Shown: positions 39,001-45,000 of the stretch, piece by piece
Layout of the letters: the number at the start of each line of letters is the position of its first letter
How positions within the stretch are numbered: position 1 is the first letter of the stretch
Assembly (NCBI GenBank): GCA_965205655.1
Contig: CBDBIJ010000091.1
Location: 1-64,000, forward strand
Origin: Candidatus Latescibacterota bacterium
GTDB taxonomy: Bacteria; Latescibacterota; UBA2968; UBA8231
Direction: 5' to 3'
Length of the DNA stretch: 64,000 bases
Made by a program: the position numbers

Positions 39001-42000
39001 GTAGATATTCGGTCAGAGATAGAGAGGGGAACCTCATTCTCGTAGGCGACGGCTCCACGACCCAGGTCACCAGGGCATTCAACATCGGGTCGCAGGAGCT
39101 CCGCAACACCATCGATGCCCTGGGGCGTCGCGATTTTACCCTGAAATTCTATGAAGTGCTCACCTCCGACGGGTCCCTGGCTCCGGATGGCAGTTTCTTA
39201 TGGACGAAGCACTTCTCCGGTCGAAGGACCCTCCGAGACCAGCGATTGGGAGTCGTCGACCATCACTTCGATCTGACGCAGGCGCGCCTGTTCCGGATCC
39301 GCTGGCTCGCTTGGGACGCGGCTTGCAACGACAGATTCAGATTCGGGGCAGCGGGGTCGCAGGGCCTTACACAGGGGTTCGGAACGTGCTACGGGCATGG
39401 CACGGCGGATGAATACCAGGTTTTCGGGGAGGGCCTCCCCGCGGATGTGGAGCTCACATCCGGACCGATCGAGCTGGGTGGAGACAAGAATCTCATGAGC
39501 GTGAGCTGGGAGGCGGAAACGCCGCCGGGCACGCGGGTGGAGATCAGGAGCCGCACCGGGAATCATATGCGCGTGGACACGACCGCGTGGTTCGACAACA
39601 AGGGAGAACCGGTCAGTCAGAGGAGATGGAACAGTCTGAGGAAGCAAAATCGGGCGGGTGACGTGACGGAGATACGCAACGCCGGCGATGACTGGAGCCC
39701 GTGGAGCAACATCTACACCGCTTCCGGCCAGGCCTTCCAGTCACCCTCGCCGCGTGAGGCCATGGAGTTGAGCGCCCGTCTGGTGAGCGAATCGCCCCTG
39801 ACCGCGGCCAGTCTGGACTGGATCGCGGTGGAGTTCTCGGCACCCATCGCCAGGAGCGTCTTTGGGGAGATCGTCCCGACTCAGGTGCAACCGGGCGAGC
39901 TGACCGAATTTTCGTACTACGTCCGCCCCATGGGATCAACGCAACAGCTCGACCAGGTAACGGTTGCCGCGCCAGTGCCGGTTCGATTCATGGGGGCGTC
40001 CATCGGCGGTGAAGCTGTTGAGGTAGGGGAACCTGACAGTCTCGACGACGGCTTCCGGATAACGTTTCCGCGGACGGTGCTAGAGAATCAACTCGTGGAG
40101 GTGCGATTCGAATCGTCCGTGTTCGTGCAGGGTACGCGCTTCGAGGCGTTTCTGGGCGATAGCAAGCGCGAGGCGGTCAGACAGCGGGTGGATCCCGGTG
40201 ACGCCAATAGGCAGGTCGAGAGCAGCACGAATGTCGTGAGGCTTCCCGTCAGCGACGACCTCATTTCAGATCTGCGCGTCGAGCCACAAGTCCTCACCCC
40301 GAACGGAGACGGGATCAACGACGAGCTCGAGCTCACGTTCTTCGTGGCAAATGTGTTGAGCCCGCGCCCGATGCGATTGCGGGTGTTCGATTTGTCCGGA
40401 CGCCTCGTTCACGAGGAGGACAGAGATGCGATCGCCGGCGAGCAGACGTTCGTCTGGGACGGCAGCACCGGCGGCACAGCGGTGGCGCCCGGAGTCTACC
40501 TGCTGGAGCTCAGCCTGGCCGGCGATGCTCGCGACGACGTGTCGCACCGACTCCTGCCCGTGGCTTACTGACCGGATCAGCCTGCCCTCGATTTCCAGCC
40601 CGGCGGGCTGGTTCATCCCCTTCGTCATCCATCGTCGTCTCAACCGCAGCTCTGATGGCAGCTCGGGTCGCGGTGTGACATGAGCGCCAAGCCGTCCTCC
40701 GGGGTGTCCTGGCCGGCAGTCCTGACAGGAGCCGTCCTCGTCGGGGCCATCAGCATTATCTGCCCTTGGGCCATCCTCGTGGTCAAGGGCTCGCAGTTCG
40801 CCGGCAACGCCCTGCCCGTCATCGCCGTCATCCTGCTCTTTCTGCTCGTCGCTCTCGTCGTTCCAGCTCTCAAGCTCCTGCGCTCCCGGCTCGCTTTCTC
40901 AAGGGCCGAAATAATCACCATCTACATCATGATGCTCGTGGGAGCGGTGGTGGTCACTGACGGATTCAGCGGCAGCTTTCTCACCGTCATAACAGGGGCC
41001 GTTTACTACGCCACCCCCGAAAACAGGTGGCTGGAACTCTTCGCTCCCAACATCCACCCCTGGTTGGCGCCCACCGATCGCGATGCGGTGCGCTGGTTCT
41101 ACGAGGGACTTCCGGCTGGAATGGCAATCCCGTGGTCGGCGTGGGCGCGACCGCTGGCGGCGTGGCTTCCCTTCATGCTCGTCTTCTACTGGGTTTTGTT
41201 CTGCGTCGGCGTGTTGCTGCGGGGGCAGTGGGTGGAAAACGACAGGCTCGTGTTTCCCCTCACCCGCCTGCCACTGGCCATGACCGAGGATGCTGACGAT
41301 GGCGGCAGGCTCGTGGAGCGGCTGTTGAAACACCCGCTGCTGTGGCTGGGATTCTCAGTCCCTTTCCTGTTTCACTCGTGGAATGGGCTCACCTTCTACT
41401 ACGACGGTCTTCAGAAACTATCCGTGGGCGGTGCTCTGCAGCTGCTGAACGGTGAGGTACTCGTACAGTATCGGCTGAATCTCCCCGTCATCGGATTGGC
41501 GTGGCTGATGCCCCTGGGCATCTCCTTCAGCATCTGGTTTTTCCACTCTCTCGGCGTCTTTCAGGATTGGATACTGAAGCGCCTCGGCATCGTGGTCGGC
41601 AGCCTCGACGTGTGGGATTCGGGCGGCTCGCCGATCAGCATTCTGCACGAACAGGCCGGGGCGCTCACGGTGCTGTGCTTTTTCGTGCTGTGGACGGCGC
41701 GCCGGCATCTGAAGGAATTCTGCTGGGCCGCCCTGCGCGGAGAAAGGAGAGAGCGGGAGCCACTATCCCCCAGACTTGCCCTGATCGGGCTGCCGGTGGG
41801 GCTGGTCCTGATGGTGAGCTGGCTGACGATCACCGGCCTCTCGCTCTACGTGGCCGTCCTGCTCGTGGCCGGGTCTCTCGTCGTCTTTATCGCCCTGTCC
41901 CGCATCGTCTGCGAGGTGGGTCTGCCCAGCATCCAATCGCCGATGGTGCCCCAGACCTTCATTACCCGCGGTTTCGGACCGGGTGTGCTGCAGCTGAAGA

Positions 42001-45000
42001 ACATGACGGGACTGGGCCTGAGCACGGTGTGGATGGGCGACACGGTCACCAACATGATGAACGCGGTGATGCACAGCATGAAGCTCACCTCTACGAGGGC
42101 AGCGGCTGACCGCCGGTTGCCGCTGGCCATGCTGCTCGCCATCGTCATCGGACTGGCGGGGTCGCTGTGGTGCATCATGACGCTGGCCCATACCCACGGC
42201 GGCATCAACCTGCAGCCCTGGTGGTTCAGCGCGGCGCCGAGGTGGCCCTTCCGATTCATGGCTTCGGTCTACAACTCACCCGAACCGAGCTTTGCCCCGC
42301 GAGCGCTGTTTACCGCCATCGGGGCGGGAATCATGTCGGCGCTCCTGTTCCTGCGGGCACGCTTCCCCTGGTGGCCCCTCAACCCGATAGGCTTTCCGAT
42401 CGCCAAGACGGTGACCATCGTCTACTGGAACTGGCTCGCCATATTCACCGCATGGGTGTTGAAGTTCCTCGTTCTGCGCTACGGCGGCGTCCGCGTATTT
42501 CGCACCCTGACGCCATTTTTCCTTGGTTTGATCCTCGGCGAATTCTCGACAGCCGGTCTGTGGCTCGTCATAGACGGTGTCAACGGCGTCGAGGGAAATA
42601 TCATCTTCAGGCAATGATCTCGCGGGGATAGAGTGTTGGAGATCCACGGAGCAAGATGAGCGACAGATCCACCTCCGGCGTGAGCGGCCGAGCCATTCTG
42701 ACCGGCGCTGTCCTGGTAGGCGCCATCAGCATCATCAGCCCCTGGGCCATCCTCATCGTCAAGGGCTCGCAGCTGGCCGGCAACGCCGTGCCCATCATCG
42801 CCGTCTTCTTCCTGTTCGGCCTCGTCGCCGTCTTCGTACCGGCACTCAAACTGCTCGGAGCCCGGCTCGCTTTTTCCAGAGCCGAGCTTATCACCGTCTA
42901 CACCATGATGCTGGTGGGCTCGGTGATCGTCACCGTGGGGTTCAGCGGCAGCTTTCTCACCGTCACGACGGGCGCCATCTACTACGCCACGCCGGAAAAC
43001 CGGTGGCACGAGCTCTTTGTCTCCAACCTCCACAAATGGCTGGCGCCCACTGATCACGAGGCCGTGCGATGGTTCTACGAAGGCCTCCCCGAGGGCGTGC
43101 CGATTCCGTGGTCGGCATGGGTGCGTCCACTGGCGGCGTGGATACCCTTCATCCTCGCCTTCTACTGGGTGCTCTTCTGCATCGGGGTACTGTTGCGGGG
43201 ACAGTGGGTGGAGAACGAACGGCTCGCCTTTCCGCTCACCCGCCTGCCGCTGGCAATGATCGAAGACGTCGACGATCGCGGCAGGCTCGTAGGACGACTG
43301 TTCAAGAGGCCGCTGTTGTGGGTGGGTTTTCTGATTCCCTTTCTCTTCCACTCGTGGAACTCGCTCAGCGGCTACTTCGACGGCATCCCGAGAATGGCCG
43401 TGGGTGGTGCCTATCCGCTGCTGAACGGGGAGGTGATGATCCAGTATCGACTCAATCTTCCCGTCATCGGACTGGCTTACCTCATGCCGCTCGACGTCTC
43501 ATTCAGCATCTGGTTTTTCCACGTCCTCGGGCTCGCTCAGGAGTGGGTATTGAAGCGCCTGGGGATCGGCACAGGTCTCGGTCTCGACATCTGGGACTCG
43601 GGCGGCTCCCCGGTGAGCATGCTGCACGAGCAGGCCGGCGCCCTGGCAGTGCTCTGCATTTTCGTGTTGTGGACGGCGCGCGGGCATCTGAAGGAATTCT
43701 GCCGGGCAGCCATCCGAGGAGACCGGAGAGAGCAAGAGCCGGTCTCTCCTCGCGTGGCAATCGTCGGACTGCCGCTGGGCCTGGTGATCATGGTGGGGTG
43801 GCTGACAACGACAGGCCTCCTCTCGCTTGGAGTGGCCGTCCTTCTAGTGGGAGGGGCGCTCGTCGTCTTCATCGGCCTTTCGCGCATCGTCTGCGAAGCG
43901 GGTCTGCCCAGCGTTCAATCGCCGATGGTGCCCCAGGCGTTCATCACGCGGGGCTTCGGGCCGGACACGCTCCAGTTGCACAACATGACCGGACTGGGCC
44001 TGGCCACGGTGTGGATCGGGGATACGATCACGAACATGATGAACGCCGTGATGCACAGCCTCAAGCTCACGTCGACACAGAGCAGGGCTGACCGCCGGCT
44101 GCCGCTCGCCATGCTGCTGGCTGTCGCCATCGGTATGACGGGATCGGTGTGGTGCATCATGACGGTGGCCTACGCCCACGGCGGCATCAATCTCCAGGGC
44201 TACTGGTTCGAGCTGTTGCCCAAGTGGCCCTTCAGCTACATGGACTCGGCCTACAACTCGCCGGAGTCGAGCTTCACTCCGCGGGTGCTCTTTACCGCCA
44301 TCGGAGCGGGTGTCATGTGGGTGCTCCTCTTCTTGAAGAGTCGCTACATGTGGTGGCCTCTCAACCCGATCGGGTTTCCGATCGCCAAGACGGTGACTAT
44401 CGCCTATTGGAACGGGCTCGCCATTTTCACGGCGTGGATATTGAAGGCTTTCATTCTGCGCTACGGTGGCGTACGCCTGTATCGCAATCTGACACCGTTT
44501 TTTCTCGGATTGATTTTGGGAGAGTTCTCGACCGCCTGCATGTGGGCGTTCATCGACGGGCTGAACGGCGTCGAGGGGAACATCATATTCAGGAACTGAG
44601 CTCACATGAACAATTGAGCGCGGCCGTGGGAAGGACGCTGTTCAGGACGGGTCGACGTGGCGGCGGACGATATCTATGAGCAGAGCCACATCGTCGCGGG
44701 CGGCATCGACGGGCGTTCTACAGGTCTCGCCGTCGACGATGCAGGCGTGAAAGTGACGCAGCTCGCGCATGAAGGCGCCCTCCCACTCGATGGCTGGCTC
44801 TGACGTATAAGCCCGGTCATCGGCGTCGACCCCGTGAATGGTCACCGTCGAGAGGATCCCCCGCGCATACCCGGTGGGATAAGACAACGTGATCCTGCGG
44901 TCGTCGGCGTAAACTTCCACCGTTTCCTTGAAGGCGCGAACGTCCGGGGATTCCACCCAGGTGAGCGCGCATCGAGCGCCCATCCCATACTCCAGGATCG

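What a model noticed while it worked through the whole genome (the two positions that open the first line are those of the whole stretch)
40680..44599. DUF6785/DUF6784 membrane proteins (9 genes here) have the OPT / Yellow-Stripe transporter fold and travel with PhyH diox [...]
Nine genes of this genome (tandem pair g02688/g02689 given as the place; also g00699, g02275, g03040, g03329, g03402, g03458, fragment g01745) carry the two 'unknown function' Pfam families DUF6785+DUF6784, and a confident model of g02688 superposes over its whole length on the plant iron-phytosiderophore transporter Yellow Stripe 1 and on nothing else. I read the family as a deep, sequence-unrecognisable bacterial branch of the oligopeptide-transporter (OPT/YSL) superfamily that imports the substrates of the neighbouring Fe/2-oxoglutarate (PhyH) dioxygenases and GFO/IDH/MocA oxidoreductases, which are hugely expanded here (60 and 54 domains). 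New would be a function and fold for two DUF fam [...]
Evidence so far: Pfam: DUF6785 405 bits + DUF6784 97 bits on g02688; no OPT (PF03169) hit even at E<=1; no gene of the genome has an OPT Pfam row. AlphaFold2 on an alignment of 29 (7 paralogues + 22 database homologues): mean pLDDT 86.9, pTM 0.88. Foldseek vs PDB: 7wsr/7wst barley YS1, E 5e-9/9e-9, prob 1.00, TM 0.66-0.71 over 681 columns; third hit E 7.5e-3, TM 0.13. Family in 100% of 75 order genomes, 92% of the phylum, 1.2% of Bacteria (relatives.tsv, call 38). neighbours.tsv: DUF6785 lies within 2 genes of a PhyH gene in 368 of 916 genomes that have both (40%; 63 of 75 in the order) and of GFO_IDH_MocA in 534 of 2343 (23%); here g00698(PhyH)-g00699 and g03458-g03460(PhyH). 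217 clusters at E<=1e-20, named [...]
(Added by a program. Inside this text positions count along the whole contig: contig position 1 is position 1 of the stretch shown here. "Call 12" and the like, gene names such as g00115 and contig names such as C1 are that model's own, and its searches are not shown. The text may have been shortened before it was handed on; [...] marks where a part breaks off. The agent that wrote the report below was given it as the finding of a first reader that could run no searches.)

Follow-up and report, generated by a model that had tools for sequence, protein, structure and literature searches.

The report
Divergent OPT-fold membrane transporter pair
Two neighbouring genes encode membrane proteins of a very large but unstudied family that has the fold of the plant and fungal OPT/Yellow-Stripe nutrient importers, so they are most likely solute importers, but the proposed tie to PhyH dioxygenase genes is close to what chance would give.

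Summary
Window 40680-42617 and 42656-44599 are intact tandem paralogues (76% identical) carrying Pfam DUF6785+DUF6784, with no OPT hit at E<=1.

An AlphaFold2 model (pLDDT 85.4, pTM 0.88) matches only barley Yellow Stripe 1. Foldseek gives E 8e-9; an independent aligner gives Z 24.6 over 552 residues, with the next hit at Z 8.1.

New here: profile-profile comparison with true bacterial OPT proteins gives a full-length collinear alignment (P 1e-6 to 2e-5). It beats the reversed controls and all 30 block-shuffled controls. The OPT Asp pair (YS1 D490/D494) is not conserved.

The PhyH/GFO link is weak:
- The nearest PhyH gene lies 24 kb from this pair.
- The adjacent GFO gene is convergent and is missing from the orthologous locus of another genus.
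- In a complete relative with 33 copies, PhyH lies within 1.5 kb of 5 copies, against 3.3 expected (P 0.22).
- Only 4 of 80 related loci have PhyH within two genes.

Neighbours differ between paralogues and are mostly glycan- and sugar-degrading genes. This scan has noted the same fold link at least 34 times on other DNA.

The parts
40680..42617 (+). DUF6785+DUF6784 membrane protein, paralogue 1 (645 aa); OPT/YSL-fold transporter
   Evidence: Pfam. AlphaFold2 model. Fold matches. hhalign to OPT. About 12 hydrophobic segments. 89% identical orthologue in G087.
42656..44599 (+). DUF6785+DUF6784 membrane protein, paralogue 2 (647 aa), 38 bp after paralogue 1
   Evidence: Pfam. 76% identical to paralogue 1. 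88% identical orthologue in the same tandem order in G087.
38100..40571 (+). 823-aa secreted or surface all-beta protein with discoidin (F5/8 type C) domains and a T9SS-type C-terminal sorting domain. It lies 108 bp upstream on the same strand and is a conserved upstream partner.
   Evidence: Pfam. One copy sits at the same place in G087 (78% identical). AlphaFold2 gives pLDDT 77.4, all beta. Foldseek finds only Ig, macroglobulin and lectin-like sandwiches, including an F-lectin, and no catalytic fold.
35191..37737 (+). 848-aa recent duplicate (91% identical) of the discoidin/T9SS-tail protein
   Evidence: G087 has a single copy.
33693..35234 (+). SurA-like PPIase (513 aa), first gene of the same-strand run and conserved at that place in G087
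   Evidence: Pfam Rotamase_2/Rotamase. 67% identical orthologue at the same place.
44642..45847 (-). GFO_IDH_MocA oxidoreductase. A convergent neighbour 42 bp from the end of paralogue 2, not part of the conserved unit.
   Evidence: Pfam. Opposite strand. No counterpart in the G087 locus.
46451..48016 (-). 521-aa polytopic membrane protein (weak SdpB/HTTM-like match). It is the conserved convergent neighbour of the pair.
   Evidence: NCBIfam weak hit. 8 hydrophobic segments. 76% identical orthologue directly after the pair in G087.
48013..49749 (-). GH123-family glycosidase in the convergent gene run. Local context only.
   Evidence: Pfam GH123_cat at 1.1e-40. Absent from the G087 locus.

Best explanation
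The two genes encode inner-membrane secondary transporters of the OPT/Yellow-Stripe (elevator-type) fold. They belong to a very large, sequence-divergent sister family of the classical OPT family (Pfam DUF6785+DUF6784).

This family is strongly multiplied in this phylum: 9 genes here and 33 in a complete relative. Each paralogue sits in a different catabolic neighbourhood, mostly glycan- and sugar-degrading genes.

The pair in the window is the end of a same-strand gene run that is conserved between two genera: SurA-like PPIase, discoidin-domain surface protein, transporter, transporter. I infer that it imports a small organic solute released or captured at the cell surface, most plausibly a sugar or oligosaccharide derivative.

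What is shown: the genes are real, the fold, the remote homology to OPT, the expansion, the conserved operon core, and the lack of specific linkage to PhyH and GFO. What is inferred: direction of transport, substrate class, energy coupling and any dimer. The OPT/YSL Asp pair tied to proton coupling is replaced, so the coupling site must differ if coupling exists.
For: Fold:
- AlphaFold2 gives pLDDT 85.4 and pTM 0.88.
- Foldseek finds 7wsr/7wst at E about 1e-8 and TM 0.65-0.71; the next hit has E 1.4e-2 and TM 0.13.
- VIA-align gives 7wsr Z 24.6, rmsd 3.8 A over 552 of 600 residues; the next hit has Z 8.1.

Sequence homology to OPT:
- hhalign of 18 family members against 10 true OPT proteins of the same phylum gives Prob 78-91%, P 1.8e-5 to 1e-6, and 525-529 collinear columns.
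- With 155 members it gives Prob 88% and P 3.2e-6.
- Controls: one side reversed scores 16-17. All 30 block-shuffles score at most 34.8, against 52.8-62.3 for the real pair.
- Cognate halves score higher than crossed halves.
- The Pfam OPT profile gives sub-threshold hits (20-24 bits) on DUF6785 proteins of class relatives.

Mechanism of the reference protein: YS1 is a proton-coupled elevator importer (PMC9691689, passages read).

Family size and expansion:
- 7806 clusters at 50% identity with E<=1e-3.
- 33 genes in G060, against 22 ABC permease (BPD_transp_1) matches.

Context:
- Own-genome neighbours include a GH29 fucosidase, GH123, GH4, a GHL10-like protein, a BNR protein, a sulfatase, MR_MLE, GFO and AKR enzymes.
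- The commonest neighbours across 80 related loci are heterogeneous.
- The conserved core of this locus is seen in G087.
Against: - No member of the family has been assayed, and I found no paper that names it.
- The Pfam OPT model does not hit these proteins. A profile of the family finds nothing in the PDB by sequence at E<=10.
- hhalign probability is 78-91%, not above 95%.
- The two Asp residues that are invariant in OPT and needed for YS1 transport align to N458 and A462. Proton symport as in YS1 therefore cannot simply be assumed.
- The substrate inference rests on gene neighbourhood only. Neighbours also include peptide and amine enzymes: S15 peptidase, aminotransferases, creatininase and an SBP_bac_5 protein.
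- The conserved upstream partner shows no catalytic fold, so it says little about the substrate.
- My gene calls and my PhyH and GFO profiles were home-made.
Confidence: 0.7

Rival explanations
1. One reading: the family is the dedicated importer for substrates of the expanded Fe/2-oxoglutarate (PhyH) dioxygenases and GFO/IDH/MocA oxidoreductases, and is genetically coupled to them.
For: - In the own genome, PhyH or GFO lies within 5 kb of 5 of 8 loci, against 1.9 expected (P 0.02). GFO alone: 4 of 8 against 1.1 (P 0.015).
- The C22 copy has a PhyH gene 49 bp downstream on the same strand. C124 has PhyH in the same-strand run.
- In genus g6, 11 of 14 best matches to the C22 paralogue have a PhyH gene 4-12 bp downstream on the same strand, and a twelfth has it just upstream.
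- In G060, PhyH lies within 5 kb of 12 of 33 genes, against 6.6 expected (P 0.02).
Against: - For this pair the nearest PhyH gene is 23.9 kb away.
- The GFO gene is convergent and is absent from the orthologous G087 locus.
- Adjacency within 1.5 kb in G060: PhyH 5 of 33 against 3.3 expected (P 0.22); GFO 1 of 33 against 1.9.
- In 80 related loci, PhyH is within 2 genes in 4 of 80 and GFO in 10 of 80. Rates are flat with offset: PhyH 4 of 340 slots at offsets 1-2 against 13 of 385 at offsets 5-8; GFO 13 of 340 against 11 of 385.
- The excess at 5-10 kb follows the regional clustering of all three families in the same half-megabase bins.
- The PhyH proteins beside the C22-type copies in the own genome and in g6 share no BLAST hit at E<=1e-5.
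- Chance alone predicts an adjacency in about 43% of genomes with these copy numbers (my calculation).
Confidence: 0.12
2. Classical OPT function: proton-coupled import of oligopeptides, glutathione-like compounds or metal-chelate complexes, as in fungal and plant OPT/YSL and bacterial OPT proteins.
For: - The fold and remote homology are the same.
- Some paralogues elsewhere sit beside an S15 peptidase, aminotransferases, a creatininase or an SBP_bac_5 (OppA-type) gene.
- On C121 a copy follows an M28-like giant protein.
Against: - The OPT Asp pair is not conserved.
- True OPT proteins coexist in the phylum as a separate family: 23 of 61 genomes have a match over the Pfam cut-off.
- The neighbours of this pair and of most own-genome copies are glycan and sugar enzymes, not peptidases or siderophore genes.
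Confidence: 0.12
3. Not an importer: an exporter or flippase, or a membrane module that works with a partner machine such as the FtsX/MacB-like giant proteins, with the OPT-like fold reused.
For: - A 2120-aa natural fusion joins MacB_PCD+FtsX to DUF6785/DUF6784.
- On C121 the gene order is M28-like giant protein, OPT-like 800-aa protein, DUF6785.
- The upstream partners here are secreted proteins and a periplasmic chaperone.
Against: - Only 1 of the 150 listed representatives is such a fusion.
- Most copies stand alone beside cytoplasmic catabolic enzymes.
- All characterised proteins of this fold that I know of are importers. That statement comes from the read passages of PMC9691689 for YS1 and otherwise from recall.
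Confidence: 0.06

Closest known systems
Barley Yellow Stripe 1 (HvYS1; PDB 7wsr/7wst) and plant YSL transporters
   Same: The whole-length fold is the same: Z 24.6, rmsd 3.8 A over 552 residues, TM 0.65-0.71. Length and helix order are similar. By inference it has the same elevator-type core-plus-scaffold architecture (PMC9691689, passages read).
   Different: - Only 10-13% identity.
- No sequence hit by phmmer or by a family profile.
- YS1 D490 and D494, needed for transport, correspond to N and A in this family.
- Bacterial rather than plant, with no link to siderophore genes here.
- The dimer interface (C-terminal strand and Cys pair) was not examined.
Bacterial OPT family proteins (Pfam PF03169, TC 2.A.67)
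   Same: Collinear profile-profile alignment over about 528 columns. Sixteen positions are conserved at 80% or more in both families with the same residue, mostly Gly and Pro. Size is similar (about 600-650 aa). Both families are present in the same phylum.
   Different: - These proteins stay below Pfam's OPT threshold; at best, relatives score 20-24 bits.
- The GDxxQDLKxG motif is absent.
- The family is far more multiplied per genome: 33 genes in G060, against 0-3 OPT matches per genome in the phylum sample.
Pfam DUF6785 (PF20581) + DUF6784 (PF20580)
   Same: Full-length matches far above the cut-offs. These genes are ordinary members of this catalogued family.
   Different: Pfam gives no function. 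I could not check whether Pfam or InterPro already places the two DUFs in a clan with OPT.

Membership tests
Pfam DUF6785 + DUF6784 | Match to both profiles above the gathering scores, in the order DUF6785 then DUF6784 | tested here: met
   404.8 and 97.5 bits for the first gene, 422.4 and 93.1 bits for the second.
OPT family (Pfam PF03169, TC 2.A.67) | Significant match to the OPT sequence profile | tested here: not met
   No hit at E<=1 on either protein. No match over the cut-off in the genome. Only sub-threshold hits of 20-24 bits on relatives' DUF6785 proteins.
OPT superfamily (remote homology) | Profile-profile homology over the whole length, above composition controls | tested here: met
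   hhalign Prob 78-91%, P 1.8e-5 to 1e-6, 525-529 columns. Reversed controls score 16-17. All 30 block-shuffles score at most 34.8.
OPT superfamily (fold) | YS1-type fold (core plus scaffold) over the whole chain | tested here: met
   Foldseek E 7.8e-9, TM 0.65-0.71. VIA-align Z 24.6 over 552 residues, next hit Z 8.1. This rests on a predicted model, not a solved structure.
OPT/YSL family | Conserved Asp pair in the C-half core helix (YS1 D490/D494; GDxxQDLK in bacterial OPT) | tested here: not met
   OPT D428 and D432 are invariant in 10 of 10 sequences and equal YS1 D490 and D494. They align to N458 (50% N) and A462 (78% A) in this family. The alignment is remote and could be off by a few residues.
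OPT/YSL family | Proton-coupled substrate import | not testable with these tools
   Needs transport assays.
OPT/YSL family | Homodimer through the scaffold domain | not tested
   Two full chains (1292 residues) exceed the size limit of the complex predictor, so no job was sent.
SBP-dependent secondary transporters (TRAP/TTT-like logic) | A solute-binding protein gene regularly beside the transporter and without ABC permease genes | tested here: not met
   SBP_bac_5 is a neighbour in 19 of 80 related loci, all of one orthologue group, and lies on C124. In G060, 6 of 9 SBP_bac_5 genes sit beside ABC permeases and none lies within 20 kb of any of the 33 copies.

The most novel reading that the evidence does not exclude
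DUF6785/DUF6784 is a major, so far unrecognised class of elevator-type nutrient importers. It is the dominant secondary uptake system of Latescibacterota and several other little-cultured phyla, and it feeds glycan- and sugar-derived compounds into their expanded oxidoreductase and dioxygenase repertoires. Its coupling or binding site differs from classical OPT proteins because the Asp pair is lost. Tandem pairs such as this one work as heterodimers downstream of a lectin-like surface protein.
Probability: 0.25. Interest if true: 0.65.

Novelty: new variant of a known kind. Interest (0 to 1): 0.5.

Why it matters
Two Pfam families of unknown function, covering about 7,800 protein clusters at 50% identity, would gain a fold, a superfamily and a likely role as solute importers. 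Some genomes carry dozens of copies, more than they carry ABC permease genes of the BPD_transp_1 type. That would change how the nutrient uptake of Latescibacterota and similar uncultured, polymer-degrading bacteria is annotated. It would also widen the OPT superfamily, which has one solved family, with a branch that lacks its proposed proton-site residues. Finally, it shows that the claimed PhyH link should not be carried into annotation.

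Tried and rejected
- **Sequence searches against solved structures.** The single protein and the family profile found nothing at E<=10.
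- **The second, Pfam-less ~800-aa family as a bridge.** This is the C76 tandem pair, at least 3343 homologues. It gave only weak local hhalign matches to OPT (P about 2e-3) and to DUF6785 (P 0.03, no better than reversed controls), so I did not use it as evidence.
- **Internal repeat.** The N half against the C half gave only P 0.02 over 52 columns, which is not significant.
- **SBP-dependent transporter idea.** Rejected from G060.
- **A conserved PhyH partner of the C22-type paralogue.** Adjacency recurs, but the PhyH proteins are unrelated beyond the family level. It is therefore neither a conserved gene pair nor proof of chance.
- **Promoter and terminator scan of 33000-46500.** Counts were no higher than in shuffled sequence.
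- **Function of the upstream discoidin protein.** No PDB sequence hit. The Atlas gave only hypothetical T9SS-tail clusters. The model shows beta sandwiches with no catalytic fold.
- **Literature.** A Latescibacterota sponge-MAG paper (PMC12993501, passages only) says nothing on these families.
- **Complex prediction of the pair.** Not attempted, because the two chains exceed the size limit.

Full report
**What is there.**
Window 40680-42617 and 42656-44599 (+ strand) are two intact ORFs of 645 and 647 aa, 38 bp apart and 76% identical.
- Both match Pfam DUF6785 (404.8 and 422.4 bits) followed by DUF6784 (97.5 and 93.1 bits), and nothing else at E<=1.
- NCBIfam has no model for them.
- phmmer against all PDB chains finds nothing at E<=10.
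- Each has about 12 strongly hydrophobic segments.
- Close homologues (55-89% identity) come from Latescibacterota and 'Gemmatimonadetes'-labelled MAGs, and are all unnamed or called 'DUF6785 family protein'.

The genome (4.0 Mb, 150 contigs, 84% complete) has 10 PF20581 matches. These make 9 genes: 7 intact, one cut by a contig end (C53) and one frameshifted (C118).

**Fold.**
I rebuilt the model independently from 18 sequences: 7 own paralogues, 2 from class relatives and 9 database homologues. It has mean pLDDT 85.4 and pTM 0.88.
- Foldseek against the PDB gives barley Yellow Stripe 1 (7wsr E 7.8e-9, 7wst E 1.3e-8, TM 0.65-0.71 over about 680 columns). The third hit is at E 1.4e-2 with TM 0.13.
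- VIA-align, which does not depend on Foldseek, compared the model with 48,161 representative chains. It gives 7wsr Z 24.6, rmsd 3.8 A, 552 of 600 residues aligned. The next hit is Z 8.1.

**Homology by sequence (new here).**
True OPT proteins (PF03169, E down to 1e-121) exist in 23 of 61 sampled genomes of the same phylum. I aligned 10 of them.
- hhalign of the DUF family alignment against this OPT alignment gives one collinear alignment over 525 columns (6-630 against 25-598), Prob 78%, P 1.8e-5, score 52.8.
- With match columns taken from the first sequence: Prob 91%, P 1e-6, score 62.3, 529 columns.
- With 155 family members: Prob 88%, P 3.2e-6, score 58.4.
- Controls: reversing one alignment gives scores of 16-17. 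20 plus 10 block-shuffles of the OPT alignment give at most 34.8, and only short local matches.
- Cognate halves score 30.8 (N-N) and 20.9 (C-C), against 15.6-17.0 for crossed halves.
- Sixteen positions are conserved at 80% or more in both families with the same residue, mostly Gly and Pro.
- Independently, the Pfam OPT profile gave sub-threshold hits (20-24 bits, profile positions 94-240) on 650-662 aa ORFs of class relatives. The four that I fetched are DUF6785+DUF6784 proteins.

Together with the fold, this makes common ancestry with OPT likely, although by Pfam's threshold the proteins are not OPT members.

**A difference that matters for mechanism.**
The OPT profile aligns to the YS1 chain at E 1.4e-26. 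This places the invariant OPT residues D428 and D432 (motif GDxxQDLKxG) on YS1 D490 and D494. The YS1 paper reports that D490N and D494N impair transport, and it proposes these Asp residues as proton sites of a proton-coupled elevator mechanism (PMC9691689, passages read). In the DUF family these positions align to N458 (N in 50% of sequences) and A462 (A in 78%). The family has its own conserved polar residues in the hairpin regions: KGSQ at 36-39, and R408/E412 in 'RIVxEaGLP'. Import by an elevator mechanism is therefore inferred from the fold. The coupling ion and the binding site cannot be copied from YS1.

**Size and expansion.**
A profile search of 1.84 billion representatives finds 7806 clusters at E<=1e-3, 5733 at E<=1e-10 and 2834 at E<=1e-30. 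In a complete genome of the same family (G060, 6.7 Mb) there are 37 matches, which make 33 genes. That compares with 22 BPD_transp_1 matches. With one paralogue as query, 77 of 101 sampled phylum genomes had a match at E<=1e-60, with up to 66 first-look candidates per genome. One family of the phylum had 0 of 13.

**The PhyH/GFO claim.**
PhyH (65 matches) and GFO (59) are indeed expanded here. For this pair, however, the nearest PhyH match is 23.9 kb away. The GFO gene (44642-45847) is on the opposite strand and convergent.

*Own genome, 8 loci:*

| Feature | Within | Observed | Random placement | P |
|---|---|---|---|---|
| PhyH | 5 kb | 3 of 8 | 1.1 | 0.09 |
| GFO | 5 kb | 4 of 8 | 1.1 | 0.015 |
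| PhyH | 1 kb | 1 of 8 | 0.47 | 0.38 |

*Gene offsets in the own genome:* at offsets 1-2, PhyH fills 2 of 30 slots and GFO 4 of 30. The background is 54 and 51 of 3531 called genes.

*80 related loci from named genomes, mostly Latescibacterota:* PhyH is within two genes in 4 of 80 loci and GFO in 10 of 80. Frequencies do not fall with distance. PhyH fills 4 of 340 slots at offsets 1-2 against 13 of 385 at offsets 5-8. GFO fills 13 of 340 against 11 of 385. The PhyH and GFO profiles for this count were built by me from this genome's paralogues, so their reach in other phyla is unknown.

*G060, 33 genes:*

| Feature | Within | Observed | Random placement | P |
|---|---|---|---|---|
| PhyH | 1.5 kb | 5 of 33 | 3.3 | 0.22 |
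| PhyH | 5 kb | 12 of 33 | 6.6 | 0.02 |
| GFO | 1.5 kb | 1 of 33 | 1.9 | - |
| GFO | 5 kb | 2 of 33 | 4.3 | - |

All three families pile up in the same half-megabase bins, which explains the excess at 5-10 kb.

*Chance expectation:* from the copy numbers of this genome, at least one adjacency within two genes is expected by chance in about 43% of genomes (my calculation).

*The one positive sign:* the C22 paralogue has a PhyH gene 49 bp downstream on the same strand. Among the best matches to that paralogue in 14 genomes of genus g6, 11 have a PhyH gene 4-12 bp downstream on the same strand, and a twelfth has it just upstream. G087 has one about 780 bp downstream. But the PhyH proteins of the own genome and of g6 share no BLAST hit at E<=1e-5, so this is not one conserved gene pair.

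**What the neighbours are.**
Own-genome copies sit beside the following:
- C124: a GH29 fucosidase in one same-strand run with PhyH and an SBP_bac_5 fragment.
- C73: MR_MLE, GFO, DRL, a xylose-isomerase-like protein and GH4.
- C22: PhyH and a sulfatase.
- C53: a BNR protein and MR_MLE.
- C118: a GHL10-like protein and GFO.
- C108: an aldo-keto reductase.
- C121: an M28-like giant protein plus an OPT-like 800-aa protein.

Across the 80 loci the commonest neighbour clusters are SBP_bac_5, rhamnose mutarotase, TrkA and TrkH (19 loci each, one orthologue group). Then come T9SS-tail proteins (15), GFO (14), MR_MLE (10), DUF5916/CBM9 (8), and aminotransferase, sulfatase, S15 peptidase, ceramidase-like, creatininase and DUF2961. 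The picture is one transporter family whose paralogues serve different, mostly carbohydrate-related, pathways.

**This locus.**
In G087 (another genus of the same family) the tandem pair is conserved (89% and 88% identity). The gene order there is FG-GAP protein, an extra TPR-like gene with no counterpart in the window, SurA-like PPIase, one discoidin/T9SS-tail protein, transporter, transporter. A convergent SdpB/HTTM-like membrane protein, an RCC1/GH42-like protein and a TPR protein follow. The GFO, GH123, cyclase and DUF711-like genes of the window are missing there.

The conserved core is therefore PPIase, discoidin protein and the two transporters. In the window the discoidin gene has recently doubled (91% identity). 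That protein belongs to a ~780-aa family conserved at 42-51% identity in the phylum. Its model (pLDDT 77.4) is all beta. It matches only Ig, macroglobulin and lectin-like sandwiches, including an F-lectin, and shows no catalytic fold. More distant relatives of the pair (56-66% identity) show no shared synteny.

**Comparison with the known, and novelty.**
The genes are ordinary members of Pfam DUF6785/DUF6784. The family works like, and is probably descended from the same ancestor as, OPT/YSL transporters. It fails the Pfam OPT threshold and lacks the OPT Asp pair. I therefore file it as a new variant within the OPT superfamily, not as an OPT family member. No paper in the searched library names the DUFs or their Pfam numbers. 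I could not check Pfam clans or InterPro. Earlier notes of this scan reached the same fold reading on other DNA (34 findings in at least 29 genomes). I re-tested the fold myself and added the controlled profile-profile evidence, the Asp-pair result and the null tests for PhyH and GFO.

**Verdict.**
Interest is moderate: a very large unknown family gains a fold and a likely role, but the substrate, the coupling and the claimed enzyme link remain open.

Noticed in passing
G000 contig C76:475-2874 and 3102-5507 (L014); C121:29062-31705 (L015:5063-7706): A second family of ~800-aa polytopic membrane proteins with no Pfam domain at all and at least 3343 database homologues, all 'hypothetical'. Its C-terminus gives sub-threshold OPT hits (25.3 bits against a cut-off of 25.8). 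A class relative (L035) scores 36 bits, over the cut-off, in the genome search but shows no Pfam hit in hmmscan. Two copies are tandem on C76. A third, apparently frameshifted, lies between an M28-like 1399-aa protein and a DUF6785 gene on C121.
   Followed up: partly
P0243 (database representative, 2120 aa): A natural fusion of a MacB_PCD+FtsX module (residues about 975-1301) to a complete DUF6785+DUF6784 unit (1483-2110). It echoes the gene order on C121 and earlier scan notes on a giant FtsX partner.
   Followed up: partly
window 35191-37737 and 38100-40571: Two 91% identical copies of an 820-850 aa discoidin/T9SS-tail protein. The relative G087 has one copy, so this is a recent tandem duplication. 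The adjacent transporter pair is older (76% identity) and already double in G087.
   Followed up: yes
window 18775-30393 (- strand): A mirror-image gene run diverging from the transporter operon: SurA-like PPIase (28705-30393), two T9SS-tail proteins (25447-27522, and 23639-25444 with F5/8 type C), then four ORFs without a Pfam family. It has the same start (PPIase plus surface proteins) but no DUF6785 gene.
   Followed up: partly
L036-L039 (G033, G028, G052, G013): In genus g6 a DUF6785 gene lies next to a PMT_2 (dolichyl-phosphate-mannose mannosyltransferase-like) protein with TPR repeats. Pfam confirmed this for two loci (L036, L037). The other two loci have an adjacent large ORF that I did not scan.
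   Followed up: no
G000 contig C124:9338-10546: An ISAZ013-type DDE transposase sits directly beside the DUF6785 gene of C124, between it and a GFO gene. Part of the local PhyH and GFO proximity there may therefore be due to rearrangement.
   Followed up: no
L040-L056, L083 (Latescibacterota MAGs): A conserved arrangement in about 19 species: SBP_bac_5 (divergent), DUF6785, rhamnose-mutarotase-like gene, TrkA, TrkH. The small rhaM-like gene directly downstream of the transporter is the tightest partner seen for any orthologue group.
   Followed up: partly
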